IMG/VR virus record: IMGVR_UViG_3300037418_003165
Span: 1 to 64,000 of that record
Strand: one strand, 5' to 3'
Source of the DNA: a virus
Lineage: Duplodnaviria; Heunggongvirae; Uroviricota; Caudoviricetes
DNA: 64,000 nt
Made by a program: the position numbers and the translations under genes. Shown here piece after piece: positions 2,256 through 59,400 of the stretch (positions are counted from its first letter, which is position 1; each line of letters begins with the position of its first letter). The notes beneath the pieces are model-generated. The model did no database searches and was not told the origin of the DNA. It saw only the letters and a list, made by a program, of their open reading frames with translations.

Positions 2256-3661
2256 CCACCGTCGACGACCGACAAACCCAGACCGGCGCGGTGTGCCGCT
2301 GCTGCATCGACATCGAAGTGGGGGTCTACCTCAATGACTATCGCGTCCTGGCCGCTCTGTGCGACGGCGGGATGGCCGAAGGAGAGCCAATGGCAAGAGA
2401 ATTCACCAAACTGTGGGGCTCCCTATTCACCGATCGCCGGTTCGTCGATCTCTGCGTATTCGACAAGATCGTGTTCGTCCAGCTCATGGGCCCGAGCGAA
2501 TGCAACCGCGCCGGTGTTGTCCGGCTGTCGCTGCGGCGCTGGCTGCGGTGGCTCGCGCCGGCATCGGAAGAGCAGTTGAAAGCCGCCCTGAATCGCCTGG
2601 AGCGCGCCGGTCTGGTGTTCATCGACCCGGACACCGAGGAAGTGTTCGTGTGCCCGTACATGGAGGAAGACGAGACCTACAAACAGCCGTGGCCGATGGT
2701 CAACGCCTTCCGCGAGATGACCCGGGTCCACAGTCCCAAGATCGCCGCGATGCTGCTCGAGGAACTCGATCGATTCGAGATCGCGCGGCCCTCGGGAACG
2801 AGCGCGACTGCAGTGAAGGTGCGCGCGGCCCTCGATGCCGCGGAACGGGATGCGCTGAAGCAGCTGAACAGCCTCGTCGACGGTGCCCCACTGAATTTCG
2901 AGCTGCCGTTCCCCGATGTTTCCATCGATGTGCACTTCGGCCCGGCGGTATCCGAATCGCCCGCTGCGCCGCTCACGCCGGCACCGACGACACGCCGGGG
3001 AGAACCCTTCTCCGAACCCTTCGGTGAACCCTTCAGCGAAGGGTTCGCGCCGCGACACGCCGCCGCGGCCGATACATCCACCCTACCTGCAGAAACCCCA
3101 GGTGAACCCTTCTCGGAAGGGTTCGAAGAAGGGTTCGAGGCACCGGGGCCGCGACACGCCGATGGAGAACCCTTCGGAGAACCCTCCGGTATAGGTGCAG
3201 GTGTTCTTGTTAACTCACCTGTTCTTTCAGGCGAGATTCAAGAATTTGGGGCTCACCTCAAGCAACCAACTCACTTGCGCGTGGCGGCATTCGACACGAG
3301 CCCCCCGATGGCCAGCTGCCCCGATCACCCGGACGGCACCAACAATCCCTGCCGCCGGTGCGAAGCCAACCGCAAGGCCCACACCCGCGAACAAGCCCGC
3401 GCCCACTCAGAACGAGTCCATCGCGACGCCGACGCCAAACGCCGCGCCTGGGAGGCCTGCCCCCTCGGCTGCCTCGAACGCCGCGGCTACACACCCGAGG
3501 GCAACCTGTGCACTCACGACCCGGAAGAGCTCACCCGCCCCATGCCCGGTCGTGACCAATACCGCGAGGTCCTGGCCGCCATCAACGACCGAGTGTCGAA
3601 CAAGCGCGCCGCCGAACCCAGCCGCGGCAACCGCGCCGACCGCCGGCGACGAAGGAAGTGA
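2252..3661 (+). CDS. Putative replication initiator-like protein with an internal iteron array and AT-rich region. Carries EPF/GEPF peptide repeats.
   Basis: 470-aa frame from ATG 2252 (ATGA overlap). The DNA encoding the EPF-repeat segment contains eight or more copies of GAACCCTTC/GAAGGGTTC, followed by an AT-rich patch. Confidence 0.5.
   Translation: MTTVDDRQTQTGAVCRCCIDIEVGVYLNDYRVLAALCDGGMAEGEPMAREFTKLWGSLFTDRRFVDLCVFDKIVFVQLMGPSECNRAGVVRLSLRRWLRWLAPASEEQLKAALNRLERAGLVFIDPDTEEVFVCPYMEEDETYKQPWPMVNAFREMTRVHSPKIAAMLLEELDRFEIARPSGTSATAVKVRAALDAAERDALKQLNSLVDGAPLNFELPFPDVSIDVHFGPAVSESPAAPLTPAPTTRRGEPFSEPFGEPFSEGFAPRHAAAADTSTLPAETPGEPFSEGFEEGFEAPGPRHADGEPFGEPSGIGAGVLVNSPVLSGEIQEFGAHLKQPTHLRVAAFDTSPPMASCPDHPDGTNNPCRRCEANRKAHTREQARAHSERVHRDADAKRRAWEACPLGCLERRGYTPEGNLCTHDPEELTRPMPGRDQYREVLAAINDRVSNKRAAEPSRGNRADRRRRRK
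2995..3190 (+). repeat. Iteron-like 9-mer array (GAACCCTTC and its complement GAAGGGTTC, at least 8 copies in both orientations).
   Basis: Read directly at 3001-3050, 3100-3140 and 3160-3185. Confidence 0.7.
3185..3275 (+). promoter_or_regulatory. AT-rich low-GC patch with inverted repeat CAGGTG...CACCTG next to the iterons. Candidate DNA-unwinding element / origin.
   Basis: ggtgcaggtgttcttgttaactcacctgttctttcaggcgagattcaagaatttgg contrasts with the 65% GC surroundings. Confidence 0.45.
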
Positions 3662-12200: not shown

Positions 12201-12556
12201 AGAATGAAGTCCCGCAAAACGAATCGCGGGACGAGATGGCCGAGCGGGCGCTGCGTTGGTGTCGCGCAAATGACGGCGGCCGCCTCGGGGTCTGGTGGCC
12301 CTGCGGTTCCCATCCGAGGGACCCGGCTGACACGAGCCAACCGATCATGGCTGTGATGTGGGACGGCGGCGGCACTGGTGAACTCGGCGTGTTCTACGAC
12401 AAGGCCGGTGCCGATGACATGGAAACCATCTGCGACATCTTCAATTGGGCCCTCGACCAGCTTGTCCCCAGCGTGCGGGGATACTACGGCGACCGGACAT
12501 ATCTCCTCCCGAAGTCTCCGCCGGCGGCCGCCGAGGCGGAGGAGGACCGCCCGTGA
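12197..12556 (+). CDS. Hypothetical protein.
   Basis: ATGA overlap. MKNEVPQNESRDE... Confidence 0.5.
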   Translation: MKNEVPQNESRDEMAERALRWCRANDGGRLGVWWPCGSHPRDPADTSQPIMAVMWDGGGTGELGVFYDKAGADDMETICDIFNWALDQLVPSVRGYYGDRTYLLPKSPPAAAEAEEDRP

Positions 12557-13257
12557 CGAAACTCCTTCTCGAAGGTATCGCTGGCTCGACAGCCTATGGT
12601 TTGAGCCGCCCGGGCAGCGATCTCGACTACATCGGCATCTACGTCGAACCCACCCGAAACTTTCTCGGACTCCACCCGCCCTCTCGTGAACGCGCCACCC
12701 GGAAAGGCCGCGGGGGAGCAGACGGCACCTTCCACGAGATCGGCAAGTCGATGACCCTCATGCTCGCCTGCAACCCACACGCGCTCGAAATCCTCTGGCT
12801 CGACAACTACACCCACTCAACCGGTTTCGGCTGGGAACTCATCGCCCTGCGAGACTGCTTCCTGTCAGCTCAAAACGTGCGTGACCGATACTTCGAGTAC
12901 GCCCGTGGGCAACTCAAGCGACTGGTCAATTCGGGCCGCTTCGCCGGATCGCTCGAAACGCGACGAGAGAAGCACGCCCGCCACACCATGCGGATCCTCT
13001 GGCAAGGCTACGAGCTATACACCACCGGCACTCTGCCGATCCGCGTACCTGCGCCTGAGCTCCTGTTCGAGTTCGGGCAGCGGGTTGCGCACGACCCAGA
13101 TGCCCGAGCAGCCGAAACGCTGATCGCCGAATACGAAGCGAAGTTCGACGACGCACGCACAGTCCTTCCGGCTGAGCCCACCGAAGCACCACTCGAAGAC
13201 CTTCTGCAGCGCATCCGTCGCGCTCACCTCGAGATCGCGGACGGAGGCCGATCATGA
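12553..13257 (+). CDS. Pol-beta-superfamily nucleotidyltransferase.
   Basis: GSTAYGLSRPGSDLDYIG matches the GS...SDxD nucleotidyltransferase motif. GTGA overlap start. Confidence 0.6.
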   Translation: MTKLLLEGIAGSTAYGLSRPGSDLDYIGIYVEPTRNFLGLHPPSRERATRKGRGGADGTFHEIGKSMTLMLACNPHALEILWLDNYTHSTGFGWELIALRDCFLSAQNVRDRYFEYARGQLKRLVNSGRFAGSLETRREKHARHTMRILWQGYELYTTGTLPIRVPAPELLFEFGQRVAHDPDARAAETLIAEYEAKFDDARTVLPAEPTEAPLEDLLQRIRRAHLEIADGGRS

Positions 13258-13856
13258 GCGAAATCTGGTACGTGTCAGACCTGCATATCGATCATCGCTT
13301 CGTGGCCGCCGAGCGGGGATTCGATTCGACGGCGGAGCATGACCGTGTCCTGGCCGAGAACTGGGACAGCAGAGTCGCACGGGACGACATAGTGGAGGTA
13401 CTCGGCGACATCTCGGTCGGCGGCAAGCGTGCGGAACTGAATGCATTGCAGTGGGTTTCGCGGCGCCCAGGCCGCAAGCACCTGAAAGCAGGCAACCATG
13501 ACGGCTGCCACGCAATGCGCAGCGAAGCGGCCAAGTGGCAGCGGATTTACCTCGACACCGCATTCGAATCAGTCCAGCAGTACGGGATCCGCAAGATCGC
13601 TGATCAACGGGTATTGCTATGTCACTTCCCCTTCCAGGGCAGCGATTACGGCGACCACACGCCAGAGAACCGCTTCGAGGAGTGGCGGCTCCCGTGCATC
13701 GGCGAGAACGCCGACCGATGGCTGCTGCACGGGCACACCCACAGCCCGATCAAGGTCCGCGGCCGCCAACTCCACATCGGCCTCGACGCCCACGACCTGA
13801 CCCCGGTGCCGCAGACATGGGTGCAACACATGATTGCCAACGATCCACCGTTCTGA
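13254..13856 (+). CDS. Calcineurin-like metallophosphoesterase.
   Basis: DLHIDH, GNHD and GHTH metal-binding motifs. ATGA overlap. Confidence 0.7.
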   Translation: MSEIWYVSDLHIDHRFVAAERGFDSTAEHDRVLAENWDSRVARDDIVEVLGDISVGGKRAELNALQWVSRRPGRKHLKAGNHDGCHAMRSEAAKWQRIYLDTAFESVQQYGIRKIADQRVLLCHFPFQGSDYGDHTPENRFEEWRLPCIGENADRWLLHGHTHSPIKVRGRQLHIGLDAHDLTPVPQTWVQHMIANDPPF

Positions 13857-15607: not shown

Positions 15608-15771
15608 CCTTCGGGGGCGGAGCCTGGTGCGCTGGCGTGGGTTACTTCCACTGTTAATGGAGAGGTTGCAGGTTCGATTCCTGTCACACCCCCCGTAAGG
15701 ATCGGGTGTGTAGCTCAATTGGCAGAGCGCTATCACCTTCGCCGAATCTTTCTCAGGCCCCGCTCCCGAAA
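15608..15771 (+). ncRNA. Y-RNA-like (YrlA-type) ncRNA candidate 2, with a permuted tRNA-Asn-like domain.
   Basis: Hairpin ttcca-ctGTTaa-tggag. T-arm gcagg-ttcgatt-cctgt (15668-84). 3' acceptor cacaccc (15685-91) pairs perfectly with gggtgtg (15704-10) across a 12-nt loop. D-arm gctc-aattggc-agagc. A 17-bp closing stem forms between 15610-26 (ttcgggggcggagcctg) and 15753-69 (caggccccgctcccgaa). Confidence 0.6.
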
Positions 15772-15812: not shown

Positions 15813-17375
15813 ATGAGCAAGTTCAACGGCAGCGCCGCGCGGGCAGTCGCCGCGGGCCCGATCCAAACCGGTTTCGCCCGCGACGCGAAATCCGAACTCT
15901 TCCTCCTCGCCATCACCAACATGGTCGGGGAGAAGACCTTCTACGAGACCGCGATCGAACGCGATTCCCGATTTGCCGGGCTCGTCCGCACCATCGCCCT
16001 CAACGACCTCGACTGGCTCACTCGCTTCGGGCGCTGGCTGCGCACCGAAGTGAACATGCGCAGCGTGTCTCTCGTGCTCGCCGCAGAAGCCGCCAAAGCC
16101 ACCAACGACGCTGGACAGCACGGTGGCCGCGAACTCGTCAACGCCGTGCTCCAGCGCGCCGACGAACCGGGGGAGATGGTCGCCTACTGGCTGTCGCACT
16201 ACGGGCGCCGACTCCCGAAACCCGTCAAGCGAGGCATAGCCGACGCCGCGGCCCGGCTCTACAACGAACGCTCAACCCTCAAGTGGGACAGCGCCGGCCA
16301 CGGCATCCGCTTCGCCGACGTCATCCAGCTCACCCACCCCGACCCCCAGGCCCTCTGGCAGTCGGAGCTGTTCAAATACCTCGTCGCCCGCCGCTGGGGC
16401 AACGACGTCGAGCCCTCGCCCCGCCTCCAGATGCTGCACGCCAACGCCCACATGCGCACCCACAGCCCCGAGCACATCAAGACGCTGGCGACGAGCGGCC
16501 ACCTGGCGGAACTGCTGCGTCTGGCCGGAATGACCTGGGAAGCGATCCCCGTCCTCGTGCAGGGACCGTGGACTGCCGAACTGTGGTCGGCGGCGATCCC
16601 GACCATGGGTTACATGGCGCTCACGCGCAACCTTCGCAATTTCGACCAGGCCCACGTCAGCGACGATATCGCCGAGCAGGTCGCTGCACGCCTCAGCGAC
16701 CCCCAGCAGGTCGCACGGTCGGGGATGCTGCCAATGCAGTTCCTGTCCGCCTACCGGGCCGCGCCCTCACTGCGCTGGGCGTACCCGCTGGAAAAGGCCC
16801 TCGATCTATCGCTGGCCAACATCCCGCAGCTCCGCGGCCGCACGCTGGTGCTGGTCGACACCTCCTCCTCGATGGATGCCGGCTTCTCCAAGGACGGCAC
16901 CCTCCGGCGCTGGGACGCGGCCGCACTCTTCGGAATCGGCCTCGCCGCCCGCTGCGAGTCAGCCGACCTCGTGTCGTTCTCCAGTACTGCCCAGTACTGG
17001 GGGCAGCCCCACAACGCCCACACCCGCGAATTCACCACCACCGCAGGCGAATCCCTACTCAAAGCCCTCGACCGGTGGAAGCAGGGCGGATGGTTCCTCG
17101 GTGGCGGCACCGCCACCGCGGCCGCGGTGCGGCGCCACTTCAACGCCCACGACCGCGTAGTGATCCTCACCGACGAGCAGGCCCAGCACGACGGCCAGGA
17201 AGTCGGCCAGGCGCTCCCGAAGCAGGTGCCGCTCTACACCTGGAACCTCGCCGGCTACAAGCGCGGCCACGCCGCCGGCGGCCCGAACCGGCACACCTTC
17301 GGAGGCCTCACCGACAAGGCCTTCACGATGATCCCGCTCCTCGAGCGCGGCCGCGACTGCGATTGGCCCTTCTAA
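15813..17375 (+). CDS. rsr: Ro60/Rsr ortholog (TROVE domain plus C-terminal vWA domain).
   Basis: 520 aa. RBS GAAGGGCAGG. MIDAS motif LVLVDTSSSM. The overall TROVE-vWA architecture is typical of Ro60. Confidence 0.75.
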   Translation: MSKFNGSAARAVAAGPIQTGFARDAKSELFLLAITNMVGEKTFYETAIERDSRFAGLVRTIALNDLDWLTRFGRWLRTEVNMRSVSLVLAAEAAKATNDAGQHGGRELVNAVLQRADEPGEMVAYWLSHYGRRLPKPVKRGIADAAARLYNERSTLKWDSAGHGIRFADVIQLTHPDPQALWQSELFKYLVARRWGNDVEPSPRLQMLHANAHMRTHSPEHIKTLATSGHLAELLRLAGMTWEAIPVLVQGPWTAELWSAAIPTMGYMALTRNLRNFDQAHVSDDIAEQVAARLSDPQQVARSGMLPMQFLSAYRAAPSLRWAYPLEKALDLSLANIPQLRGRTLVLVDTSSSMDAGFSKDGTLRRWDAAALFGIGLAARCESADLVSFSSTAQYWGQPHNAHTREFTTTAGESLLKALDRWKQGGWFLGGGTATAAAVRRHFNAHDRVVILTDEQAQHDGQEVGQALPKQVPLYTWNLAGYKRGHAAGGPNRHTFGGLTDKAFTMIPLLERGRDCDWPF

Positions 17376-26451: not shown

Positions 26452-26738
26452 GCGCCTGGGAGCACTGGTCCAAGGCCGAGGCTCACATGGCCGAGTATCA
26501 ATTCCGCGACGCCGCCGAGCTCGCGGACGAACTGCTTGAGGCGGGCTACATCCTCGCCGCCGACCGCGACACGGTCGCGACGGAGATCGGCGTCCACGAC
26601 GCCGTCTACGTATTTGAGGACGACGCCCCGCATTGCAAGTGCGGGAAGTGGCTGGAGGACAACGAGTACGAGTGGCCGGACCATGTGGGTGATGTGCTCG
26701 ACAAGTGGATCACCGAAGCGGGGAGGGGGGACCGATGA
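26448..26738 (+). CDS. Small hypothetical protein.
   Basis: GTGA overlap. Confidence 0.4.
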   Translation: MSAWEHWSKAEAHMAEYQFRDAAELADELLEAGYILAADRDTVATEIGVHDAVYVFEDDAPHCKCGKWLEDNEYEWPDHVGDVLDKWITEAGRGDR

Positions 26739-26992
26739 GCGACTGGCGCGGAGGCTTCTACGCTGCCGTTGCCGCGTGGCTCCGCGACCGTGAACCCGCC
26801 CTCGATATCGCGCGCGTCGTGGGCGTGGACGAGAGTATCGACATCAATCCCGGCTACTCGGTGGCCGACGACACGGTCGAGGTGAACCTTGAGGTCCGGT
26901 ACATGACGTCGGAGGGTGTGGAGCAGACGCATTCGCGGCTGGGCGGCCTCGGCGAAGTCATCCGGGAGATCACCGCGGGAGCGGAGTCGTGA
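26735..26992 (+). CDS. Small hypothetical protein.
   Basis: ATGA overlap. Confidence 0.4.
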   Translation: MSDWRGGFYAAVAAWLRDREPALDIARVVGVDESIDINPGYSVADDTVEVNLEVRYMTSEGVEQTHSRLGGLGEVIREITAGAES

Positions 26993-27201
26993 GCAAGCTG
27001 TTGTGTCAGAACTGCAAGGGCGAGATGCGTTGGAACCCAAACGCCCCGGCGTACCGGTGTAGCGATCCTGGCTGTCGGTGTGAGACGGCGCAGGGATGCT
27101 ATGAGCATGTCGGCGAGGATTGCACGCTGTTCCTGTGGCTGCTCCAGGTACCTGACGACGCCGAGGCGGGAGCGCCCAAGGTGGCGGCGGGAGAGTCGTG
27201 A
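26989..27201 (+). CDS. Small zinc-ribbon protein.
   Basis: GTGA overlap. CQNCKG...CSDPGCRC. Confidence 0.4.
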   Translation: MSKLLCQNCKGEMRWNPNAPAYRCSDPGCRCETAQGCYEHVGEDCTLFLWLLQVPDDAEAGAPKVAAGES

Positions 27202-27239
27202 GCGACGAAATCGCGGACAGGCGCCGATAGGATCGCGGC

Positions 27240-27419
27240 ATGGCGTTACAGGTTGGATCGCGGGTCAAGCTCATCGAGGGCGGGGTGTCGGTGTTCCGCA
27301 TCGTGGAGATGGAGGCCGACGGTGATCCCACTCATGTGGTCGTGGAACCAGTTGAGGATGCGCCGGGCGGGTACCCATTCCCGACACCGATCCAGCACCT
27401 GGTGCTCGTCGACGAGTAA
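27240..27419 (+). CDS. Small hypothetical protein (59 aa), absent from the ORF track because it is below 60 aa.
   Basis: ATG 27240 to TAA 27417-27419. MALQVGSRVKLIEGGVSVFRIVEMEADGDPTHVVVEPVEDAPGGYPFPTPIQHLVLVDE. GC3-biased. Confidence 0.4.
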   Translation: MALQVGSRVKLIEGGVSVFRIVEMEADGDPTHVVVEPVEDAPGGYPFPTPIQHLVLVDE

Positions 27420-27481
27420 CTTGGTATCGGTTCGGATGGATGTTCCGGCCTCAGATCGCCATGACGACAGAGGAGCATCCA

Positions 27482-27727
27482 ATGCAGAACATCACGATCG
27501 GCCGATACCGGGCCAACGAGGCCACCGCCGTGCGCATCCGATGCGATGCCGGCGGGAATGAACTTGGTCGCGAAGATTTCCAGGCCCACGCTGGGTGGAT
27601 CGAAGGCGTACGCGACGACGGCAGTCGCTGGATCATGTACACGGACGCCGCCGGCTCCCCGCAGATCTTTTGGCCGCACCGAGGCGACGACGGCGCCGTG
27701 CGCGGCGTCCCGGTCGAACTGGATTGA
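27482..27727 (+). CDS. Hypothetical protein.
   Basis: GAGGAG sits 9 nt upstream of ATG 27482. In frame with listed ORF 27440..27727. Confidence 0.45.
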   Translation: MQNITIGRYRANEATAVRIRCDAGGNELGREDFQAHAGWIEGVRDDGSRWIMYTDAAGSPQIFWPHRGDDGAVRGVPVELD

Positions 27728-27795
27728 GCACAGAAACGAAATGGCCGCCCCGGCAACCGGGGCGGCCATTCTGCGTACTGGGGGACCGTCTCGCC

Positions 27796-28035
27796 CTACT
27801 GGGGGGTGGTCGGCGCGGTCGTGCCGCCGGACGCGCTGCCGCTCGTCAACGCTCGGACCACGGCGTTACCCAGGTTCGCGCTACCGCTCGTGGCGGGGTC
27901 GGGGGTTGTCGTGCCGTCGACGGCGACAGCGGCTGGCGCGGGCTCGAGAGGAATGCCGGCCTGGGCGACAGTGGCGCTGGCCCCGATCACGGCAACAGCG
28001 GAGAAAGCGATAGCGGCAAAACGGGTGATGCTCAC
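27796..28035 (-). CDS. Small secreted Ala/Thr-rich protein with a signal peptide.
   Basis: GTG start with a GGAGA RBS. N-terminus SITRFAAIAFSAVAVIGASATVAQA. Confidence 0.5.
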   Translation of the reverse strand: MSITRFAAIAFSAVAVIGASATVAQAGIPLEPAPAAVAVDGTTTPDPATSGSANLGNAVVRALTSGSASGGTTAPTTPQ

Positions 28036-28152
28036 AAATTCTCCTAGCTCGATTTGTTGTGATGACGTCCTTGCATCGTTCACAGCATGAAAAACGTTAC
28101 TACCAGCGGATTTGCGGGATTCGCTCTGAAAGACTCGCTGTCGCAGGTGGTC

Positions 28153-28434
28153 TCACGCCTCTGCTGGCGGCGTGCCGCCGCGTTGGAACACATCTCGCAG
28201 ACCGGCGTCCAGATCCAGACGACCGCGGAGGTCCTCGATGAAGTCCGCGTGTTTCGCGGCCAGCCACGCATCGATCTCCGCCGTTTCCTCGGTCAGCTCG
28301 GCGCTTGCCGCGGGATCAGCTTGCACACGTTCGAACATCTGCTGGAATTCCGTCCACAGGCGTTCCGTCGTCTTCGGGGCGACAGGTCGGAGCAGCATGC
28401 GCGCGATCTCGTCCTTGTCCTCCTGAAACGTCAT
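28153..28434 (-). CDS. Hypothetical protein.
   Basis: 93 aa. Its ATG sits 6 nt after the stop of the upstream minus-strand gene. Confidence 0.5.
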   Translation of the reverse strand: MTFQEDKDEIARMLLRPVAPKTTERLWTEFQQMFERVQADPAASAELTEETAEIDAWLAAKHADFIEDLRGRLDLDAGLRDVFQRGGTPPAEA

Positions 28435-28439
28435 GCTGA

Positions 28440-28694
28440 TCAGGCCTTGTCCTCGGGAAAGAGATGGGAGTAGTGCGTACGGATGGTGCTTCCGAGGCCG
28501 CCGCCCGGCATGTCGGTGACTTCCAGAACGATGAGGGGCTCGGCGCGGTCACGGAAGTAGAAGACGTCCCTCACGATGAAGTCGCCCTCCGGCAGGACGA
28601 TCGTCTCCGCGCGGCGCGGGAGTGGCCACTCGCCGGGCCAGTCGATGTCGAACGATTGTCCGTAATGGTTTATGTCGTGGATGCGGAGCTTCAC
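28440..28694 (-). CDS. Hypothetical protein.
   Basis: GTG start with a GAAGGG RBS. VKLRIHDINHYGQSFDIDW... Confidence 0.45.
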   Translation of the reverse strand: MKLRIHDINHYGQSFDIDWPGEWPLPRRAETIVLPEGDFIVRDVFYFRDRAEPLIVLEVTDMPGGGLGSTIRTHYSHLFPEDKA

Positions 28695-28906
28695 GATTCG
28701 ATAGCCCTTCCGGGACGGTTGGCAGTCAGTGACGATTTCTCGCGGTGGAGCAGGTCTCGAATGTAGGGGGGCAGCCCGTGGGGGAGACGCCATTGTCTCC
28801 CCGCTCGGATGCTTGCGGGTTGGATCCGCGGACTGCTCGGGTGGATATCGGTGACCGGTCGTGTCCCGGCCCGGAGTCGAACCGGGCCGCGCACCATGCG
28901 GGACGA

Positions 28907-29209
28907 TCAGGCTTCGCGCGCCTCTTCGGCGTCGTCGAGCGATGCGCCGAGCGCGTTGATCGCGGCGCGGAAGTGGGGGTGCCGCGAGGAGTGCTTGTCG
29001 GGGCGTTCGAGGAAGTAGACGATCTCGCCGATGCTCTGCGAGCGGAGCCGGCCGAGGTATTCACCGTCGCGGTCGCGGGTGATGCGCTGCCACCCGTCCT
29101 CGTCGTAGCGGTCGAGCAGGATCGTTTCGGCGATGTAGGGCCCGCGGTGGCGCAGCATGGCCGCGCGGACCGGGTAGAGGTCGGTCGTACCGGCTTCGAT
29201 ATCAGACAT
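28907..29209 (-). CDS. Hypothetical protein.
   Basis: CAGGAGAA RBS 5 nt upstream of the ATG. Confidence 0.55.
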   Translation of the reverse strand: MSDIEAGTTDLYPVRAAMLRHRGPYIAETILLDRYDEDGWQRITRDRDGEYLGRLRSQSIGEIVYFLERPDKHSSRHPHFRAAINALGASLDDAEEAREA

Positions 29210-29235
29210 CGGGTTCTCCTGAGAGGGAATGGGTT

Positions 29236-29481
29236 TCAGACTGCGACGGGGGCGGTGACGGTGACGTCCTGCCAGTTGCCGTGGCGGGTCGAGGCCCGGA
29301 TGATCTCGCCGTCGGCGTTCAGGCGGAGCAACAGCACCACTTCCTGCCCGCGGTCGTTGCGCGTCCGGGCGAGCGACGCGAACTCGTACTCGGGGCCTTC
29401 GGTGATCGTGTAGCGGCGGCCGCCGTAGTGGATGACCTGGCCGACGTAGTGGTCCGCGGGCTTGAGATCCGGCTTCGTCAT
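29236..29481 (-). CDS. Hypothetical protein. First gene of the minus-strand operon.
   Basis: GAAGGAGG RBS, then ATG (MTKPDLK...). Confidence 0.55.
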   Translation of the reverse strand: MTKPDLKPADHYVGQVIHYGGRRYTITEGPEYEFASLARTRNDRGQEVVLLLRLNADGEIIRASTRHGNWQDVTVTAPVAV

Positions 29482-29498
29482 GTGCGCCTCCTTCATCG

Positions 29499-29580
29499 GG
29501 TGTACGTACACCTTAGCGTTGGGTGTACGTACACCGCAAGCTTGATAGGCTACCAATTTGTACGTACACCCCAGCGGCCG
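29499..29580. promoter_or_regulatory. Three copies of palindromic operator GGTGTACGTACACC in the divergent intergenic region.
   Basis: Copies at 29499-29512 and 29522-29535 are exact. The copy at 29567-29580 (tTTGTACGTACACC) deviates in its left flank. Confidence 0.7.
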
Positions 29581-29591
29581 AAGGAACACTC

Positions 29592-29789
29592 ATGCCGGAC
29601 CAACCCAAAACGCAGCACCGCTCGGTGCGCGTGCCGGATGACGATTGGATAGACCTCGAAACAGCTTCCGCCAGTGCGGGTTCCGACCGCGCCAAAGTGA
29701 TCAACTTGTTGATTCGCTGGTATTTGCGGCGGCCCGGCGCGAAGCTTCCGCCGCGTCCGCCAGCGGGCAATCGTGAAGGCGGCGGGTGA
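29592..29789 (+). CDS. Ribbon-helix-helix (Arc/CopG-like) DNA-binding protein, the likely operator-binding regulator.
   Basis: N-terminal RSVRVPDDDWIDLE beta-strand followed by helices. GAAGGA RBS. Confidence 0.6.
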   Translation: MPDQPKTQHRSVRVPDDDWIDLETASASAGSDRAKVINLLIRWYLRRPGAKLPPRPPAGNREGGG

Positions 29790-30277
29790 CGGCCGTGCGC
29801 GCCGCTCATGCCAAGCCGCGAGGGAGGCCATGTGCCCACCGGCGCTATCGGCTGACCTGTGAGGAATACGAGCAACTTCGACGGTGGTCTGGCGATTGCT
29901 GCCAACTGTGCGGAATCGCGCCGCAGGACACGTCTCATGGCTTCTTATCGATCGACCACGACGATCGGTGGGGCAGTTGGGCCGTCCGCGGGCTGCTGTG
30001 CTGCTCGTGCAATACCTGGACCGTTCCGTGTGATGGACAATCGCCCGAGGTGCGCCGATACCTCCGGAATGCGTGGTACTTGAAGATGCTGGCGGAAAGG
30101 GGGCTCGCGGTTGCGGTCCCGCCCGAGCCGCGCGAGGGCGCGACGGTCGTATGGGGCAGAAGGCGTTGGACCCGGAGGCGAGCCAGCTGGATCGCTCACG
30201 ACAGGTTGGCCGGCGGCCGGACAACCTGGGCCGGTCTGTACCGGCGATATGGCCCCTGCGAATTGGAGATTCTGTGA
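29786..30277 (+). CDS. Endonuclease VII-like / HNH-family nuclease.
   Basis: CQLCG...IDHDDRWGSWAVRGLLCCSCN fits the Endonuclease_7 motif pattern. Confidence 0.6.
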   Translation: MTAVRAAHAKPRGRPCAHRRYRLTCEEYEQLRRWSGDCCQLCGIAPQDTSHGFLSIDHDDRWGSWAVRGLLCCSCNTWTVPCDGQSPEVRRYLRNAWYLKMLAERGLAVAVPPEPREGATVVWGRRRWTRRRASWIAHDRLAGGRTTWAGLYRRYGPCELEIL

Positions 30278-30528
30278 TGACGGATAACGCCTATGCAGCC
30301 GAGCGTGTGCAGGTTCGGTGCGTACTGGTCTTCGGCAGTGGGCCGGATGCGCGAGCGGAGCTGGAGACGCCGTGGCATCCGGTGCGGGACCCGATGGCGG
30401 TGCGCGCCGGTGATATCGCCGACCAGGCCGGCCTTCCGGTGGGGGAGTTGCCGGGGCGGCGGTTCTGGGCGGTGGGCAACGCCGAGGGTTTGAGTGGGTT
30501 TGAACTGGTGGACGATCCGCGAAAATAG
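30277..30528 (+). CDS. Hypothetical protein.
   Basis: ATGA overlap. Confidence 0.45.
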   Translation: MTDNAYAAERVQVRCVLVFGSGPDARAELETPWHPVRDPMAVRAGDIADQAGLPVGELPGRRFWAVGNAEGLSGFELVDDPRK

Positions 30529-30529
30529 A

Positions 30530-30618
30530 TGTTGCAAAACATGTGCCGTGTGTTGTAAAGTATGAAGTGTCGGAAGGGGGTCGGACCCCGACCGGCAGCA
30601 GTTTGACAACACAACAAT
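30530..30618 (+). promoter_or_regulatory. Repeated promoter-leader element, copy A.
   Basis: -35 TTGCAA, 18-nt spacer, -10 TAAAGT, then a GC-rich structured leader. About 89 bp, identical to copy B except in the spacer. Confidence 0.5.
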
Positions 30619-30633
30619 GAAAGGAAGCTCACG

Positions 30634-31014
30634 ATGAGCGAACGTTGGGACATGTTCAGCGCCGGACTCATTACGAATCTGGCGGGAATCGTGAAAGTCC
30701 TTGGGATGCTCCCCATTCCGATCGAAGTCAAGATCGAACCAGGTGGCGGAGACGAGATCGCGGACCTGGTCCGAGCTCAGAAGCTCCTCCAGGAAATCCC
30801 GATGCACGACATCCTGCGGGCCGCCTGCAACACGGCGATCCTGGACTGGATGACCGGCGTCACCCTCGGCTCGTTCGCTGACAGGCTCAGCGAGGATGAC
30901 GAGGATTGGGACTGGATGGTCGCCAGCGGCATCATCCAGATGCACCGGTGCCGAGACGAAATCGAGCTGGCGCTCGGAATTCTCTCCGGCAAGGTGGAGA
31001 TCGAGGAGGAGTGA
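30634..31014 (+). CDS. Hypothetical protein (paralog of 31698..32066).
   Basis: AAAGGAAG RBS. Similarity blocks with 31698..32066 (LPIPIEVKIEPGG vs PPIALPVFEPG). Confidence 0.55.
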   Translation: MSERWDMFSAGLITNLAGIVKVLGMLPIPIEVKIEPGGGDEIADLVRAQKLLQEIPMHDILRAACNTAILDWMTGVTLGSFADRLSEDDEDWDWMVASGIIQMHRCRDEIELALGILSGKVEIEEE

Positions 31015-31052: not shown

Positions 31053-31171
31053 GGCCTCTCGGGTGGGCGTAACGCCCCCATGTGAAGTCTGGGGCCGGAA
31101 GGGCGGGCCGAAGCCCAAAGTCGGAACCCCACCGGCCAGCAGTTTGACCAACTCGAAAGGAGGTCGCCGAC

Positions 31172-31582
31172 ATGGTAGCGCGATCGAAGAACGAAACGCC
31201 AGGGCGCGTCATCGCGCCGGAAATTGCTGAGCGGTACGGCCGCGAGCTTTCGACCGTTCAGCGGCAGTGGATGGCCAGCAGCGTGTGGCCTGCAGCGGTC
31301 GGCAAACGTGGTCGCTGGAACGTGTTCGACGCCGACGCGGTCGATCGCATCGTGCGCGAGCACTTCATTCGCCCCACCGCGACAGCCGGCCGTCCGGACG
31401 ACCTCCTGACAGTGGCCGAAATTGCCGAGTACACGGGGCTGAGCGCATCGACGATCCGCTCGGACATCTCGCGCGGGCGTATCCAGCGCGACCCAGACGA
31501 CGAGTCCGACGGGGTGAAGCGGTGGAGGCGCGCGACGATCGATGCGGCGATGGCCGGACGTCAGCGGTACAGGCACCGCTGA
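31172..31582 (+). CDS. Helix-turn-helix DNA-binding protein (excisionase/MerR-like).
   Basis: LLTVAEIAEYTGLSASTIRSDISRG. AAAGGAGG RBS. Confidence 0.55.
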   Translation: MVARSKNETPGRVIAPEIAERYGRELSTVQRQWMASSVWPAAVGKRGRWNVFDADAVDRIVREHFIRPTATAGRPDDLLTVAEIAEYTGLSASTIRSDISRGRIQRDPDDESDGVKRWRRATIDAAMAGRQRYRHR

Positions 31583-31600
31583 AAATTCTCCCCAAAGAAG

Positions 31601-31688
31601 TGTTGCAAAACATGTCTCCAATGTTGTAAAGTATGAAGTGTCGGAAGGGGGTCGGACCCCGACCGGCAGCAGTTTGACAACACAACAA
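31601..31688 (+). promoter_or_regulatory. Repeated promoter-leader element, copy B.
   Basis: Identical to copy A except for the 8-nt -35/-10 spacer. Confidence 0.5.
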
Positions 31689-31697: not shown

Positions 31698-32066
31698 ATG
31701 AACCATGATGAGAGGCGCCGCGAGATCGGCAAGCGCATCACCTACGGGTGGGTGCTGATGTGCAAGATCTTCGCTTTGCTCACCCCGCCGATCGCCCTTC
31801 CGGTATTCGAGCCGGGCAACCTGCCCCAGCTCGAGGAGGCCGCGGTTCGGGCCCGGGCCCTGGTCAAGGACCTTCCGCTGGACGCGGAAACCACCGGCCT
31901 GCTCGACCTGGGGCTACTCGAATGGCTCACAGCGGTCGCGCTGTGCAAGTTCGAGTCCTACGGGCCGTACGAGCATCTGCTGGACGCGGCGACGCACTCG
32001 CTGATCCGGCACTCGCTGATCATGCAGGACGTGGGCGAGAAGTTCGATTGGTTCCCCGAGAGCTGA
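31698..32066 (+). CDS. Hypothetical protein (paralog of 30634..31014).
   Basis: AAGGAG RBS. Confidence 0.5.
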   Translation: MNHDERRREIGKRITYGWVLMCKIFALLTPPIALPVFEPGNLPQLEEAAVRARALVKDLPLDAETTGLLDLGLLEWLTAVALCKFESYGPYEHLLDAATHSLIRHSLIMQDVGEKFDWFPES

Positions 32067-46908: not shown

Positions 46909-48555
46909 GTGGCGGTACTCATCGTCCCGCCCCTCGACCTGACCTACCCGACCCTCGGACCCGACCTCGCGGACTTCATCGAGGAACGGTTCACGTTCGG
47001 GCCAGGATCGCTGGCGGGAGAGCCGGCGGTCCTCGACGACGAGAAGCGCGCCGCGCTGTACCGGCTGTACGAGGTGTACCCGCAGGGGCACCCGCTGGCC
47101 GGGCGGCGCCGCTTCAACCAGGGCGCCATCGAGTGGCGTAAGGGCCTGGCCAAGACGGAGTTCGCGGCGTGGGTGTGCGGCCTCGAGCTGCACCCGGAGG
47201 CGCCGGTTCGCTGCGACGGCTTCAACGCCGCGGGCGAACCGGTCGGCCGGCCGGTGAAATTCCCGTACATCCCGATGATGGCGGTCACCGAGGAACAGGT
47301 GAGCGAGCTCGCCTATGGCGTGCTCTGCTACGTCCTCGAGCACAGCCCCGACGCCGACCTGTTCGACATCGGCGCAGACCGGATCATCCGGCTCGGCCGC
47401 AACGGCGCGCCGGACGGCCGCGCGGTGCCGGTATCGAACGCCCCGGGCAGCCGCGACGGTGCGCTGACCACCTTCCAGCACTTCGACGAGCCGCACCGGC
47501 TGTACCTGCCGTCGCAGGTCGGCGCGCACGAAACGATGATGCAGAACCTGTCGAAGCGGGCGCTGGAAGATCCGTGGAGCTTCTACACCAGCACCGCGGG
47601 CAAGCCTGGACAGAAGAGCATCCAGGAGAGCCTTCGTCGCGGCGCCGAACGCATCGAACGTGGTGAGGTCGAGAAGCCGAAGATGTTCTTCTTCGGCCGC
47701 TGGGCTGGACCCGCACACGACGATCTCAGCACCGTCGAGAAGCGCATCGCAGCGATCGCGGAGGCCACCGGCCCGGCCGGTGAATACGGCCCTGGGCAGT
47801 TCCAGTCCATCGCCGAGGACTACGACCGCGAAGGCTGCGACCGGGCCTACTGGGAGCGCGTCTACCTCAACCGGTGGCGCGCCGGCGGAAACCAGGCCTT
47901 CAACATCACCAAGATCGTCGCCAACCTCGTTCGGCCCGCCGGGACCGTCATCCCGGCGGGCGCGTTCGTCGCCGGCGGCTTCGACGGCGCACGGATGCGG
48001 GACTCGACCGGTCTGGTGCTCACCGATATCCAGACCGGCCTGCAGCAGTGCGTGGCTCACTGGCAGCGGCCCGAGGGCGTCGAGGAGTGGGAGGTCGACG
48101 AGGCCGAGGTGACTGCGGCCTTCGAAGACGCCATGGACCGCTACGAGGTGTGGAAGATCTACGCCGATCCGCCGCACTGGACTGCGACGCTCGGTGATTT
48201 CTCGGTGCGATGGCCGGAGCGGATCGAGGAATGGTGGACCCACCGGCAGAAGCCGATGGCCTATGCGCTGCGCGAGTACATCGAGGGCCAGGACGCCGGC
48301 CTCGTTTCCTACGGCGGCACCGAGAAGCAGCTCGACGTCATGATCGACCACCTCGGCAACGCCGAACGCAAGGAACTGCGGATGTACGACGACCAGGGAT
48401 TTCCGCTGTACATCCTGCAGAAACCCGATGGCCGGCAGGACTGCAAGATCGACCTCTCCGTCTGCGGAGTCCTGTCCTGGAAAGCAACCCTCGACGCCCG
48501 CAAATCGGGCGCGAAACCCCGCCCGAAAGCCCGCGCCCCCCGGCGCCTGTATTGA
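46909..48555 (+). CDS. Terminase large subunit.
   Basis: 548 aa. The N-terminal ATPase region is followed by a nuclease half. Position before the portal gene. Confidence 0.75.
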   Translation: MAVLIVPPLDLTYPTLGPDLADFIEERFTFGPGSLAGEPAVLDDEKRAALYRLYEVYPQGHPLAGRRRFNQGAIEWRKGLAKTEFAAWVCGLELHPEAPVRCDGFNAAGEPVGRPVKFPYIPMMAVTEEQVSELAYGVLCYVLEHSPDADLFDIGADRIIRLGRNGAPDGRAVPVSNAPGSRDGALTTFQHFDEPHRLYLPSQVGAHETMMQNLSKRALEDPWSFYTSTAGKPGQKSIQESLRRGAERIERGEVEKPKMFFFGRWAGPAHDDLSTVEKRIAAIAEATGPAGEYGPGQFQSIAEDYDREGCDRAYWERVYLNRWRAGGNQAFNITKIVANLVRPAGTVIPAGAFVAGGFDGARMRDSTGLVLTDIQTGLQQCVAHWQRPEGVEEWEVDEAEVTAAFEDAMDRYEVWKIYADPPHWTATLGDFSVRWPERIEEWWTHRQKPMAYALREYIEGQDAGLVSYGGTEKQLDVMIDHLGNAERKELRMYDDQGFPLYILQKPDGRQDCKIDLSVCGVLSWKATLDARKSGAKPRPKARAPRRLY

Positions 48556-56422: not shown

Positions 56423-59400
56423 ATGCCTACATATGACGCCGGTACCGCGGCTATTCGGGTACGGCCCTCCTTCAAGAACTTCGTCAACGAGGCGAAGGCC
56501 GAACTCGAGTCCATGGGGCTGGAGGCCAACGTCCGGTTCGACGCCGACACCAAGGCCGCCGAAGCCGAGGTCGAAGGCTTCCGCGCCGAGGCGGAGCGCG
56601 GCATCAACGTCACCGTCGACGCTGACGTCGAGGCGGCGGAAGCGGCGATCAAGGAAGTCAAGGAAGAGGCCGCGCGCGGAGTCCGGGTCGACGTCGACGC
56701 GGACACTTCCTCCGCCGAGGCCGCGGTCACCGGCTTCCGGGAGGAAGCCGAACGCGACGTCGACGTCAAGGTCGATGCCGACACCGCCGCGGCGGAATCC
56801 AAGACCGAAGGGTTCCGGCAGACCCAGGAGAAGCGGCCGGTCAAGGTGCCGGTGAAGGCGGACCTGGATACCGGCAAGCTGAAGTCCGATCTGTCGTCGA
56901 TAGCGAAAGATCTGGCATCCGCCGGCAGCGTGACGCTGAAGATCGCCGGCGTGATCGGTGCGGCCGGCGCGATCTCGGATCTGCTGGCCATTGCCGACGC
57001 CGCCGGTGTCGCCGCGCACGCGGTCGCGCTCATCCCGGCAGTCGGCTTCGCTGGTCTCGCTGGAATCGCATCAGCCGCAGTCGGTTTGAAGGGTATCCCG
57101 GCTGTCTTCAAGGAGATGAAGAAGCAGTCCGACTCCGCTTCGGAGTCGGCGAAGAAGCAGTCCGACAGCCTGTTCGACGTCTCCGAAGCCCAGTACCGGG
57201 TGGGTCAGGCGGAGCAATCGGCCGCCGACGCCAGCCGGACCACCCTGCGTAGTCAGCAGGATCTGAACGACGCCTACCGCGATGGCGCGCGGTCGCTGCG
57301 CGACATGAACGACCAGCTCGAAGACCAGAAACTGGCCACCGAGGATGCGTCGATCGGCGTCGAGGAAGCAGCCAGGCGGCTGCAGCAAGTGCAGTTCGAT
57401 CCCAGCGCCGATTCGATCACTCGGCGCCGCGCCCTGCTGAACTACAACGAATCGGTCCAGCGGCTCAAGGAGCAGCAGAACAAGACTCAGGACCTGGCGC
57501 AGGACACCGCCGAGGCCAACGCCAAGGGCGTCGAGGGCAGCAAGGAAGTCGTCGCCGGCAAGGACAAGGTCACGGCGGCCGCCAAGGCGCAAGCCGCCGC
57601 AGAGCACGAAATCGTCACCGCTACTGAGCAATTGCGCCGTGCGCAGCGCGATTCTAACGAGGCGGCGGCCGGTGGAAGCAAGCTCGCCGACGAGATGGCG
57701 AAGCTGTCGCCCAACGCGGCGCAGCTGGTGCGCGACATCCACTCGCTCGGCCCGGCGTGGAAAGACGTCGGCAAGGCCGGCCAGGACACGCTCACCGCCC
57801 ACCTCGGCCCGGACATTCAATACCTTGCTGACCAGCAACTGCCGAACGCCAAGAACGGCATCATCGGGATCAACACCGCGCTGAACACCGGGTTGCGCGG
57901 CGTCCTGGACTCGCTGTCGTCGCAGCAGAACAAGCTCGACTTCAAAACCACCCTGGATAACACCGCGTCCGGCTTCGCCAACGCCGCCATCGGTGCGCGC
58001 CCGTTCACCGACGCCATGACGAAGCTGGTAACCGTCGGGTCCGACTTCCTGCCCGAGATGGGCATTTCAGTCGCACAGCTGTCGATCAAGTTCGACGCAC
58101 TCATCCAGCGCACCGCCACCGACGGCTCGCTGAAGCGGTGGATCCAGGACGGCATCGACTCCGGCCGCGAACTGCTGAAGATCACCGAGCACATCGGGTC
58201 CGCGATCGCGTCAGTTTTCCGCGCCGCCGGAGGAGACGGGCAGACGCTGCGCTCGCTCGACGAACTCACAGGCCGGATGGCGGCGTTCCTGAAATCCACT
58301 GACGGCCAATCGGATATGCGCCGGTTCTTCGATGACGCGCGGACGGAGGCAGCCAAACTCAAGCCGATCCTCGAGGATCTGCCTCGCATCCTGCAGGGCG
58401 TCGTCAGCGGCATGCACACCTGGTCGGAAATCGCGCTGCCGTTCCTCAACGCGCTGACCAGCCTGCTGTCGGCCCACCCCGGCCTCGTGGAGGCCGCGGT
58501 CGTCGCCTACGCCGGTTTCAAAACCATCGGGCCCATCGTCGACGGCGCGAAACTCGCCATCAGCGGCCTCGCCTCGGTAGCTGGAGACGCCGGCTCCGAA
58601 ACCAAGGGCGTCGGCAAACTCAAGGCCGCCGGTTCCGGCCTGCTGAGCATCCTCGGAAACCCCTGGACCACAGCATTTGTGGTCGCTGGCTCCGTCGTCG
58701 CCGGCTTCGTCGACGAGGCGGACAAGGGCAGCGCCGCGATGGCCCGGTTCAAGCAGCAGACCGATGACGCCGTCGCCGCGGACCGCGCCCTGCAGAAGGC
58801 CCTGAGCCTGTCACACGGCGTCACCGACGCCGCTGTACTCGACCAAGAAGCCGACAGCGTCAAGCGACTTCGCGACGCATGGGCGACCAACGCCGCCGAC
58901 ATCCCGACCTGGCGCGACAAGTTCAAGCTCGCCCCGGCGGTCTATGGGCGGCTGGTGGGTGTCGGCCAGGGAACGATCGACAAAGAGAAGACCCGCGAGA
59001 CTGACGACCGCCTCGACAAGTCGTCGCGGGACGCGCTCGATCAGCTCGGCCTGGCCAACGACCAACTCGCAGCGAAGATCACCGGCGCCAAGCCGGAATT
59101 CGACGCGATGATCGACAAGCTCAGCGGCATGGGCACCGGCGGCCGCGAAGCTGCCCACCAACTGACCTTGCTGCGCGATGAATGGGCGCTGGACGCGACG
59201 GCCGCGACACCGGTCGCCAAGGCCATCGGGGATCTGGGCGACAAGAACAAGGACGCCGCGAACAGCATCGACGCCGCCACCCAAGCGCTGGAACGGCAGC
59301 GTAAGGGCGGACTCACCTTCGAGGACGCCCAGCAGAAGGTCAACGCGGCACTGCGAGCCTTCGCTACCGATGCCGACACTGCGACCGGTGCGGTGATCCG

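What the first reader, a model, noticed from the sequence alone, without database searches (positions are those of the whole stretch)
29499..29789. Three palindromic operators (GGTGTACGTACACC) between divergent genes, adjacent to a ribbon-helix-helix regulator
Two exact copies and one near copy of a 14-bp palindrome are spaced 23 and 45 bp apart. They overlap the RBS/promoter regions of the leftward operon (start 29481) and the rightward RHH gene (start 29592). This resembles a lambda OR-type tripartite operator that could act as a genetic switch controlling the minus-strand island versus the rightward nuclease/HTH genes.
Basis: seen in the sequence. Interest (0 to 1): 0.7.

Follow-up and report, generated by a model that had tools for sequence, protein, structure and literature searches.

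The report
Phage ribbon-helix-helix repressor with three operators
Three copies of a short palindrome between two back-to-back promoters are almost certainly the binding sites of the small ribbon-helix-helix (RHH) repressor encoded next to them. The same three-site cassette, with the palindrome and the protein's DNA-reading residues changing together, recurs in dozens of uncharacterised phages and prophages of Streptomyces and related actinobacteria.

Summary
GGTGTACGTACACC occurs exactly at 29499-29512 and 29522-29535. A 12/14 copy lies at 29557-29570. The 10-bp core TGTACGTACA occurs three times here and nowhere else in 64 kb.

The adjacent 65-aa gene (29592-29789) encodes an Arc-like RHH protein. 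I fetched 85 loci that encode homologues. In 62 of them, two to four copies of a 10-bp palindrome lie upstream at the same offsets. The palindrome falls into at least six classes. RHH beta-strand residues 8, 9 and 11 co-vary with the class, while R10, R13 and the C-terminal WYLRRPGA motif never change. The leftward neighbour genes are unrelated from locus to locus.

A leftward promoter motif (TTGnnn, 17-18 bp spacer, TAnnnT) sits in a fixed register in 57 of 64 loci. O2 lies in its spacer and O1 covers its predicted start site.

Best reading: RHH dimers bind O1 and O2 and repress the leftward five-gene operon. The weaker O3 gives negative autoregulation.

A lambda-type two-repressor switch is not supported, because no second regulator was found. 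This is a new member of a known kind, of moderate interest.

The parts
29499..29512 (.). O1: perfect 14-bp palindrome GGTGTACGTACACC. It overlaps the 3' end of the leftward -10 element and covers the predicted leftward transcription start.
   Evidence: GG..CC flanks are present in 19/19 distinct relatives of this operator class.
29522..29535 (.). O2: perfect 14-bp palindrome. It fills the 18-bp spacer between the -35 and -10 elements of the leftward promoter.
   Evidence: GG..CC flanks are present in 18/19 relatives.
29557..29570 (.). O3: 12/14 copy TTTGTACGTACACC (core 29559-29568 is exact). It is predicted to be the weaker, autoregulatory site at the start of the rightward transcript.
   Evidence: The left flank is GG in only 3/19 relatives and variable in the rest.
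29510..29539 (-). Predicted leftward promoter P_L: -35 TTGCGG (29539 to 29534), 18-bp spacer, -10 TAAGGT (29515 to 29510).
   Evidence: The same motif sits in the same register in 57/64 loci on the minus strand. It occurs 0 times on the plus strand and 0.82 times on average in shuffles. No transcription start site has been measured.
29543..29551 (+). Candidate rightward promoter P_R: extended -10 element TGATAGGCT, 7 nt upstream of the O3 core. The alternative is -35 TTGATA (29542-29547) with -10 TACACC (29565-29570).
   Evidence: TTGATAG(G/A)CT is conserved in the 89%-identical relative L090, while the flanking bases differ. This is an inference only; the E. coli-type promoter scan found nothing.
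29592..29789 (+). 65-aa ribbon-helix-helix repressor. Predicted beta-strand about residues 8-14 (QHRSVRV), helices 16-28 and 33-45, then an invariant tail WYLRRPGAKLPxRP.
29786..30277 (+). Endonuclease VII / HNH-type gene. Its start overlaps the RHH stop codon by 4 nt, so it is probably co-transcribed.
   Evidence: Pfam PF02945 at E=3.6e-10. Only residues 1-24 and 135-163 of this protein are retained in relative L090.
27796..29481 (-). Leftward five-gene operon, the regulated cargo: 29236-29481, 28907-29209, 28440-28793, 28153-28434 and 27796-28083. All five are small proteins with no family match.
   Evidence: GC3 frame analysis. An independent gene call on an identical contig agrees. No family matches and no homologues in the other loci. 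One search covered the 81-aa product alone and found only an identical copy.
27739..27771 (-). Intrinsic-terminator-like hairpin (15-bp stem followed by a T-rich tail) that ends the leftward operon.
   Evidence: inverted repeat I15.

Best explanation
The 65-aa protein is an Arc/MetJ-type ribbon-helix-helix repressor. One dimer is proposed to bind each palindrome by placing its two-stranded beta-sheet in the major groove. Invariant Arg13 would read the conserved outer TG/CA, and residues 9 and 11 (His, Ser) the central ACGT.

O2 lies in the spacer of the leftward promoter P_L and O1 covers its -10 edge and start site. Occupying these two perfect sites would shut off the five-gene leftward operon. 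O3 lacks the GG flank, so it should bind less tightly. It lies at the start of the RHH transcript and would give negative autoregulation at higher repressor levels.

The expected behaviour is a burst of both promoters when the DNA enters a cell without repressor. P_L is then shut off and P_R settles to a set level.

Shown here: the sites, their statistics, the conserved geometry, the protein-operator co-variation and the promoter motifs. Inferred: binding, stoichiometry, affinity order, transcription start sites and timing.
For: - **Clustering.** The core occurs three times in a 70-bp stretch and nowhere else in 64 kb. In related loci, 87 core copies lie upstream of the RHH gene and 3 lie elsewhere in 287 kb.
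- **Conserved layout.** 62 of 85 homologue loci carry two to four palindromes at the same offsets. Spacing is 22-26 bp and then 33-37 bp.
- **Specificity classes.** TGTACGTACA goes with TQHRSVR. TGTAGCTACA goes with P(A/P)RQ(M/I/V)R. TGCATATGCA goes with TNRV(V/I)R. TGTGGCCACA goes with Arg or Lys at position 11. TGTCATGACA goes with PRRTVR.
- **Co-variation.** Mutual information with operator class is 1.39, 1.68 and 1.87 bits (of 1.99 possible) for residues 8, 9 and 11. The highest value in any shuffle was 0.69. R10 and R13 are invariant.
- **Not just shared ancestry.** Some proteins are 78-81% identical outside the strand yet have different strands and different operators: L017 versus L071, and L066 versus L084. 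Conversely, proteins of the TGTACGTACA class keep TQHRSVR although the rest of the sequence clearly diverges.
- **No other candidate binder.** The leftward first gene belongs to at least 17 unrelated families within one operator class. The same DUF6011/SWIM or WYL family also occurs with different operator classes.
- **Promoter motif.** The P_L motif is present in 57/64 loci against 0.82 expected.
- **Own promoter.** In the 31 loci where a TAnnnT was found close upstream of the RHH gene, it ends 6-7 nt before the start codon in 29. That places O3 in the promoter spacer of a leaderless transcript.
- **Affinity order.** O1 and O2 have GG..CC flanks in 19/19 and 18/19 relatives. O3 has them in only 3/19.
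- **Fold.** PHROG Arc-like repressor E=8e-7, the AlphaFold model, and RHH proteins dominating the weak PDB and Foldseek matches.
Against: - There is no binding or expression data of any kind.
- The PDB and Foldseek matches are individually not significant (E of 0.07 or worse).
- One relative (L083) has the same 10-bp core with a different strand (TTARPVR), though its flanks are CG..CG. The residue-to-base code is therefore not strict.
- Helix-B positions also show mutual information of 1.0-1.4 bits, so part of the signal reflects shared ancestry.
- The rightward promoter in this window is unresolved. The window lacks the TAnnnT just before the start codon that most relatives have.
- The E. coli-type promoter scan found nothing.
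- The role in the life cycle is unknown. No integrase was found among the window ORFs that I scanned.
Confidence: 0.75

Rival explanations
1. A lambda O_R-type bistable switch. A leftward-encoded repressor and the rightward RHH ('Cro') would compete for the same three operators, and the outcome would decide between the minus-strand island and the rightward genes.
For: There are three sites between divergent promoters, two strong ones on one promoter and one weak one on the other. In TGCATATGCA-class relatives the leftward gene is itself a small RHH protein, so a two-regulator version may exist elsewhere in the family.
Against: None of the five leftward products in the window has a DNA-binding or any other family match. 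None has a homologue in the 90 other loci. Across relatives the leftward gene is replaceable, with at least 17 families, while the operators stay the same. The rightward HTH and other genes have their own promoter-like 95-nt repeats.
Confidence: 0.15
2. The palindromes are not RHH sites. They could instead be targets of another protein (a host factor, the HTH_17 protein at 31172-31582, or a restriction-modification enzyme), or hairpins in the RNA leaders.
For: The cores contain restriction-type palindromes (GTAC, TACGTA). A methylase gene lies 2.7 kb away. Any palindrome can fold as a hairpin in RNA.
Against: The centre of the site changes between classes but stays self-complementary (ACGT, AGCT, GGCC, ATAT, CATG). 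A twofold-symmetric dimer on DNA requires that; an RNA loop does not. The RHH gene is the only constantly linked gene and its strand co-varies with the site. The window's HTH_17, methylase and nuclease have no conserved homologues next to the cassette, apart from one distant methylase match and the nuclease in three loci. No Rfam family matches the region.
Confidence: 0.06
3. The RHH protein is a type II antitoxin, with the overlapping HNH gene as its toxin, or a ParG/omega-type centromere-binding protein. The repeats would then serve toxin-antitoxin autoregulation or plasmid partition.
For: RHH antitoxins and ParG are the best, though weak, PDB matches. The downstream gene overlaps the RHH stop codon.
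Against: The downstream gene differs in most relatives. In L087, L088 and L089 the RHH gene is alone or nearly alone on its strand. The HNH gene is largely missing in the closest relative, L090. No ParA-type ATPase appears in the neighbours scanned. The sites coincide with promoter elements of a divergent operon.
Confidence: 0.04

Closest known systems
Phage P22 immI region: Arc and Mnt repressors (established knowledge; PHROG 6506 is named 'Arc-like repressor')
   Same: A small phage RHH protein that represses its own transcript and an overlapping divergent promoter. The beta-strand residues line up with Arc Q9, N11 and R13 (here H9, S11, R13). Some relatives carry a second, divergent RHH gene, as mnt is to arc.
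   Different: Arc binds a single 21-bp operator as two dimers whose centres are 11 bp apart. Here there are three separate 14-bp palindromes 23 and 35 bp apart. No antirepressor gene lies downstream. Sequence similarity is detectable only through the PHROG profile. The invariant Pro/Arg-rich tail is absent from Arc.
MetJ and met boxes (established knowledge)
   Same: One RHH dimer per short palindrome with an ACGT centre (met box AGACGTCT), and repeated boxes on one promoter.
   Different: Met boxes are directly abutting 8-bp repeats. MetJ needs S-adenosylmethionine as co-repressor and is a host metabolic regulator.
Lambda CI/Cro at O_R (established knowledge)
   Same: Three operators lie between back-to-back promoters. 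Two strong sites repress one promoter and a weaker third site lies on the regulator's own promoter. The 23-bp spacing of the first pair is similar.
   Different: Lambda uses helix-turn-helix proteins, two antagonistic regulators and positive autoregulation by CI. None of these is evident here.
Reg576 of plasmid p576 (PMC6294495)
   Same: An RHH repressor that regulates its own gene and the promoters of accessory 'establishment' genes. This gives transient de-repression after the DNA enters a new cell.
   Different: The Reg576 operator is a dual TTATCCC heptamer bound by two dimers. It controls four dispersed promoters on a conjugative plasmid of Bacillus.

Membership tests
Ribbon-helix-helix (Arc/MetJ/CopG) DNA-binding superfamily | Strand-helix-helix fold with an N-terminal strand of alternating polar and hydrophobic residues | tested here: met
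   The AlphaFold model has an extended N-terminus and helices 16-28 and 33-45, with pLDDT above 90 for residues 11-50. The strand is unpaired in the model because a monomer was predicted.
Ribbon-helix-helix (Arc/MetJ/CopG) DNA-binding superfamily | Significant profile match to a curated RHH family | tested here: inconclusive
   PHROG 6506 Arc-like repressor matches at E=8e-7. There is no Pfam or NCBIfam match. PDB profile: ParG at E=0.07. The top Foldseek matches are RHH proteins, but all have E above 0.3.
Ribbon-helix-helix (Arc/MetJ/CopG) DNA-binding superfamily | Dimer that binds repeated or palindromic DNA through the strand | not testable with these tools
   The only evidence is indirect: strand residues 8, 9 and 11 co-vary with the operator core.
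Lambda-type CI/Cro bistable switch | Three operators between divergent promoters | tested here: met
Lambda-type CI/Cro bistable switch | Two divergently encoded, antagonistic DNA-binding regulators that share the operators | tested here: not met
   The leftward products have no DNA-binding family match and are not conserved among relatives.
P22 immI (Arc/Mnt/Ant) | An antirepressor gene co-transcribed downstream of the RHH gene | tested here: not met
   The downstream gene is an endonuclease VII / HNH type. No ANT or Bro domain was found in the window genes scanned.
Type II toxin-antitoxin with an RHH antitoxin | A conserved cognate toxin gene in the same operon | tested here: not met
   The downstream gene varies between relatives or is absent.
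ParG/omega-type partition system | An adjacent ParA/ParF-type ATPase | tested here: not met
   None appears among the neighbours in the window or in the four 14-20 kb loci (L086-L089) that carry Pfam annotation.

The most novel reading that the evidence does not exclude
The RHH-plus-three-operator cassette could be the primary immunity (lysogeny-maintenance) module of a large, unstudied group of temperate phages of Streptomyces and related actinobacteria. In several prophage-like contigs the RHH gene is the only gene, or nearly so, that faces against long gene arrays. The six or more operator classes would then be natural heteroimmunity groups set by two or three beta-strand residues. That would amount to a readable RHH recognition code and a ready set of orthogonal repressors.
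Probability: 0.3. Interest if true: 0.7.

Novelty: new member of a known kind. Interest (0 to 1): 0.5.

Why it matters
RHH repressors that regulate their own genes are common, so the window's feature is not surprising in itself. What the comparison adds is a widespread protein family that Pfam and NCBIfam do not name. Its operator layout is fixed while its specificity has changed repeatedly through a few strand residues. That gives a natural experiment for how RHH proteins read DNA. It could also supply candidate orthogonal repressor-operator pairs for high-GC hosts such as Streptomyces and Mycobacterium. Finally, it gives a handle on the early regulation of a large group of uncharacterised actinobacterial prophages.

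Tried and rejected
- **Phage collection.** DNA searches (near and distant) and a protein search found nothing for the region or the RHH protein. No annotated relative could therefore be used.
- **Promoter scan.** The E. coli-type scan found no promoter. I used the actinobacterial TTGnnn / TAnnnT pattern with a shuffle control instead.
- **Family libraries.** Pfam, NCBIfam and PADLOC gave nothing for the RHH protein or the five leftward proteins.
- **First neighbour clustering.** My GC3 filter was too strict and dropped the RHH gene and the window's genes. I redid the analysis with anchored gene picking.
- **Leftward 81-aa product.** The homologue search found only an identical 86-aa protein on a 90.5-kb JGI contig. 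Its contig could not be retrieved, so I ran no structure prediction for it.
- **Structure matches.** Foldseek and PDB profile matches pointed to RHH proteins but were not significant.
- **Literature.** Searches for the operator sequence and for RHH regulators of actinobacteriophages or Streptomyces prophages found no description of this system.
- **RNA families.** Rfam gave no match in the operator region.
- **Life style.** I looked for an integrase to settle temperate versus lytic. None was found among about 40 window ORFs scanned. The window is only part of a longer genome.

Full report
**1. The observation**

The region reads GGTGTACGTACACC (29499-29512), a 9-bp gap, GGTGTACGTACACC (29522-29535), a 21-bp gap, then TTTGTACGTACACC (29557-29570). 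The 10-bp core TGTACGTACA occurs exactly three times in the window, all within this 70-bp stretch. Allowing one mismatch adds no further copy. The expected count is 0.27, and none of 100 dinucleotide-preserving shuffles reached three.

To the left, a minus-strand gene starts at ATG 29481 behind a strong Shine-Dalgarno sequence (AAGGAGG, 29487-29493). To the right, the RHH gene starts at ATG 29592 behind GAAGGA (29580-29585). The palindromes do not overlap either ribosome-binding site.

**2. Setting**

The window is actinobacteriophage-like DNA with about 66% G+C. It contains:
- a large terminase (46909-48555), 63% identical to those of Mycobacterium abscessus prophages;
- a 1762-aa ORF (56423-61711) that I take to be a tape-measure gene from its size alone;
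- a replication initiator (1817-3661);
- a methylase, glycosyltransferases and other genes.

Nearly all genes are on the plus strand. The exception is a five-gene minus-strand island (27796-29481), seen in the GC3 frame analysis. An independent gene call on a 100%-identical metagenome contig agrees with it. The island ends at a 15-bp-stem terminator-like hairpin (27739-27771).

No DNA or protein relative of the region exists in the annotated phage collection.

**3. The protein**

The 65-aa product matches PHROG 6506 'Arc-like repressor' (E=8e-7). It matches no Pfam or NCBIfam model. A 69-sequence alignment gave an AlphaFold model with an extended N-terminus, helices 16-28 and 33-45, and pLDDT above 90 for residues 11-50.

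The profile search against PDB sequences puts ParG second at E=0.07, behind a spurious antibody light-chain match, followed by RHH antitoxins. The Foldseek list is dominated by RHH proteins: DinJ, PutA, Arc, AtaR, AmrZ and NikA. None of those matches is significant on its own.

Aligned on the conserved Pro15, residues H9, S11 and R13 correspond to the base-contacting Q9, N11 and R13 of Arc. That correspondence comes from established knowledge of Arc and is an inference here.

**4. Comparative evidence**

The large protein database holds 68 homologues. I fetched 43 viral contigs and 42 genome loci that encode a relative. Most genome loci are from Streptomyces, Kitasatospora and Actinomadura.

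In 62 of the 85 loci, the 200 bp upstream of the gene carries two to four copies of a perfect or near-perfect 10-bp palindrome. The offsets match those in the window: 22-26 bp, then 33-37 bp, and sometimes a fourth site 34-36 bp further on.

The palindrome differs between groups of loci:

| Operator core | Loci |
|---|---|
| TGTACGTACA | 26, plus the window |
| TGCATATGCA | 16 |
| TGTAGCTACA | 11 |
| TGTGGCCACA | 7 |
| TGTCATGACA | 1 |
| CGTACGTACG | 1 |

Further loci carry imperfect variants such as GGTGGTTGACCACC. The outer TG...CA is almost constant. The centre changes between classes but is always self-complementary.

**5. Which protein reads the sites**

Each operator class goes with its own strand sequence.

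| Operator core | RHH strand |
|---|---|
| TGTACGTACA | TQHRSVR |
| TGTAGCTACA | P(A/P)RQ(M/I/V)R |
| TGCATATGCA | TNRV(V/I)R |
| TGTGGCCACA | Arg or Lys at position 11 |
| TGTCATGACA | PRRTVR |

In 51 non-redundant proteins, mutual information with operator class is 1.39, 1.68 and 1.87 bits for positions 8, 9 and 11. The class entropy is 1.99 bits and the highest value in any shuffle was 0.69. R10, R13 and the motif WYLRRPGA are invariant.

Shared ancestry alone does not explain this. L017 and L071 are 81% identical outside the strand, and L066 and L084 are 78% identical, yet each pair has different strands and different operators. In the other direction, proteins of the TGTACGTACA class keep TQHRSVR although their helices clearly diverge.

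No other gene is a constant partner:
- Within the TGTACGTACA class, the first leftward gene belongs to at least 17 unrelated families.
- The same DUF6011/SWIM or WYL family appears with different operator classes.
- The downstream gene also varies.
- The window's own neighbours have essentially no homologues in the other 90 loci.

One exception weakens a strict code. L083 has the same core, with CG..CG flanks, but the strand TTARPVR.

**6. Promoters**

On the minus strand, the pattern TTGnnn, a 17-18 bp spacer and TAnnnT occurs in one fixed register in 57 of 64 loci. That count covers all operator classes and includes the window. The pattern occurs 0 times on the plus strand and 0.82 times on average in shuffles.

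In the window this is -35 TTGCGG (29539 to 29534) and -10 TAAGGT (29515 to 29510). O2 fills the spacer. O1 overlaps the end of the -10 element and the predicted start near 29503. Apart from the operators, the only near-invariant intergenic bases are the 'TA' between O1 and O2 and the 'CAA' after O2. These are the cores of the -10 and -35 elements.

A TAnnnT was found close upstream of the RHH gene in 31 loci. In 29 of them it ends 6-7 nt before the start codon. That implies a leaderless transcript with the last operator in the promoter spacer.

The window and its 89%-identical relative L090 are different. Both have a Shine-Dalgarno leader and a conserved TTGATAG(G/A)CT ending 7 nt before the O3 core. 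I read this as an extended -10 promoter (TGnTAnnnT) whose start site lies in O3. This step is inferred, and the alternative is TTGATA-17-TACACC.

O1 and O2 carry GG..CC flanks in 19/19 and 18/19 distinct relatives of this class. O3 has GG on the left in only 3/19. This suggests a built-in order of affinity.

**7. Mechanism proposed**

RHH dimers occupy O1 and O2 first and block the leftward promoter. At higher concentration they occupy O3 and limit their own synthesis.

The rightward unit probably comprises only three genes: the RHH gene, the endonuclease VII/HNH gene that overlaps its stop codon, and an 83-aa gene. The reason is that a 95-nt repeat with its own promoter-like TTGCAA-18-TAAAGT follows at 30523-30617 and again at 31594-31688.

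The circuit resembles Reg576 of plasmid p576. There, an autoregulated RHH repressor lets accessory genes fire briefly after DNA entry (PMC6294495).

Whether the cassette serves prophage immunity is open. In L087, L088 and L089 the RHH gene is alone or nearly alone on its strand inside long opposite-strand arrays. That is the position of a maintenance repressor. In L086 it precedes an HTH_17 gene at a prophage edge. In the window it heads a rightward unit and controls only five leftward genes of unknown function.

**8. Rivals**

- **Lambda-type two-regulator switch.** This lacks its second regulator.
- **RNA hairpins or restriction sites.** These do not explain why the variable centre stays palindromic, or why it tracks the RHH strand.
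- **Toxin-antitoxin or partition roles.** These fail because the required partner gene is not conserved.

**9. Verdict**

The 'genetic switch' reading goes beyond what the sequence shows.

The feature is a new, unannotated member of the phage RHH repressor kind. Its family-wide pattern of operator and protein co-variation makes it moderately interesting.

Noticed in passing
window 15613-15731 and 15813-17375; also 12445-13856: The 'tRNA-Asn' called by ARAGORN (15625-15694) scores below the Rfam tRNA threshold (25.5 bits against 29). It overlaps a YrlA (Y RNA-like) match at 15661-15731 (36 bits, E=3e-6, below the gathering score). Directly downstream lies a TROVE/Ro60-like + VWA gene. An RlaP nucleotidyltransferase and a metallophosphoesterase lie upstream. 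Together these look like a phage-borne Ro / Y-RNA / RNA-repair module.
   Followed up: partly
window 30523-30617 and 31594-31688; partial third copy at 31126-31148: A 95-nt direct repeat (92% identical), unusually AT-rich for this genome. It carries TTGCAA-18-TAAAGT and a GC hairpin. It lies just upstream of two paralogous genes (30634-31014 and the ORF ending at 32066, both PHROG 33636). It is probably a repeated promoter or leader cassette.
   Followed up: partly
window 29786-30277 compared with L090 672-832: The endonuclease VII/HNH gene that overlaps the RHH stop codon is reduced to its first 24 and last 29 codons in the closest relative (RHH 89% identical). This looks like gain or loss of a mobile HNH gene.
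   Followed up: partly
TGCATATGCA-class loci in which the gene was picked up: L019, L027, L028, L041, L043, L080 (about -280 to -50 from the RHH match start): In this operator class the leftward gene is itself a small RHH-like protein of 46-77 aa (for example MSAPPKPIIERRVIGGVTLYPEQIAKLGAYAKAHNLSRAAAIRKLIDLHA). That makes a divergent pair of RHH genes, reminiscent of P22 Arc and Mnt.
   Followed up: no
RHH residues 43-56 (window 29718-29759): The tail WYLRRPGAKLPxRP is the most conserved part of the whole family. W43, L45, G49, A50 and P53 are invariant in 69 sequences, and Y44, R46, R47, P48, L52, R55 and P56 are conserved in at least 90%. It lies beyond the second helix, in a region where model confidence falls. 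Its role is unexplained; cooperativity, minor-groove contact or a host partner are possibilities.
   Followed up: no
L057, about -808 and -785 from the RHH match start: A second pair of TGTACGTACA cores, spaced 23 bp apart, lies about 720 bp to the left of the main cassette. This suggests a second regulated promoter in that prophage.
   Followed up: no
window 26592-30580: This stretch is 100% identical to a 4.9-kb contig assembled from run SRR35144446. The 81-aa leftward protein is identical to part of an 86-aa protein on a 90.5-kb JGI contig that could not be retrieved. The full genome is therefore probably about 90 kb.
   Followed up: partly
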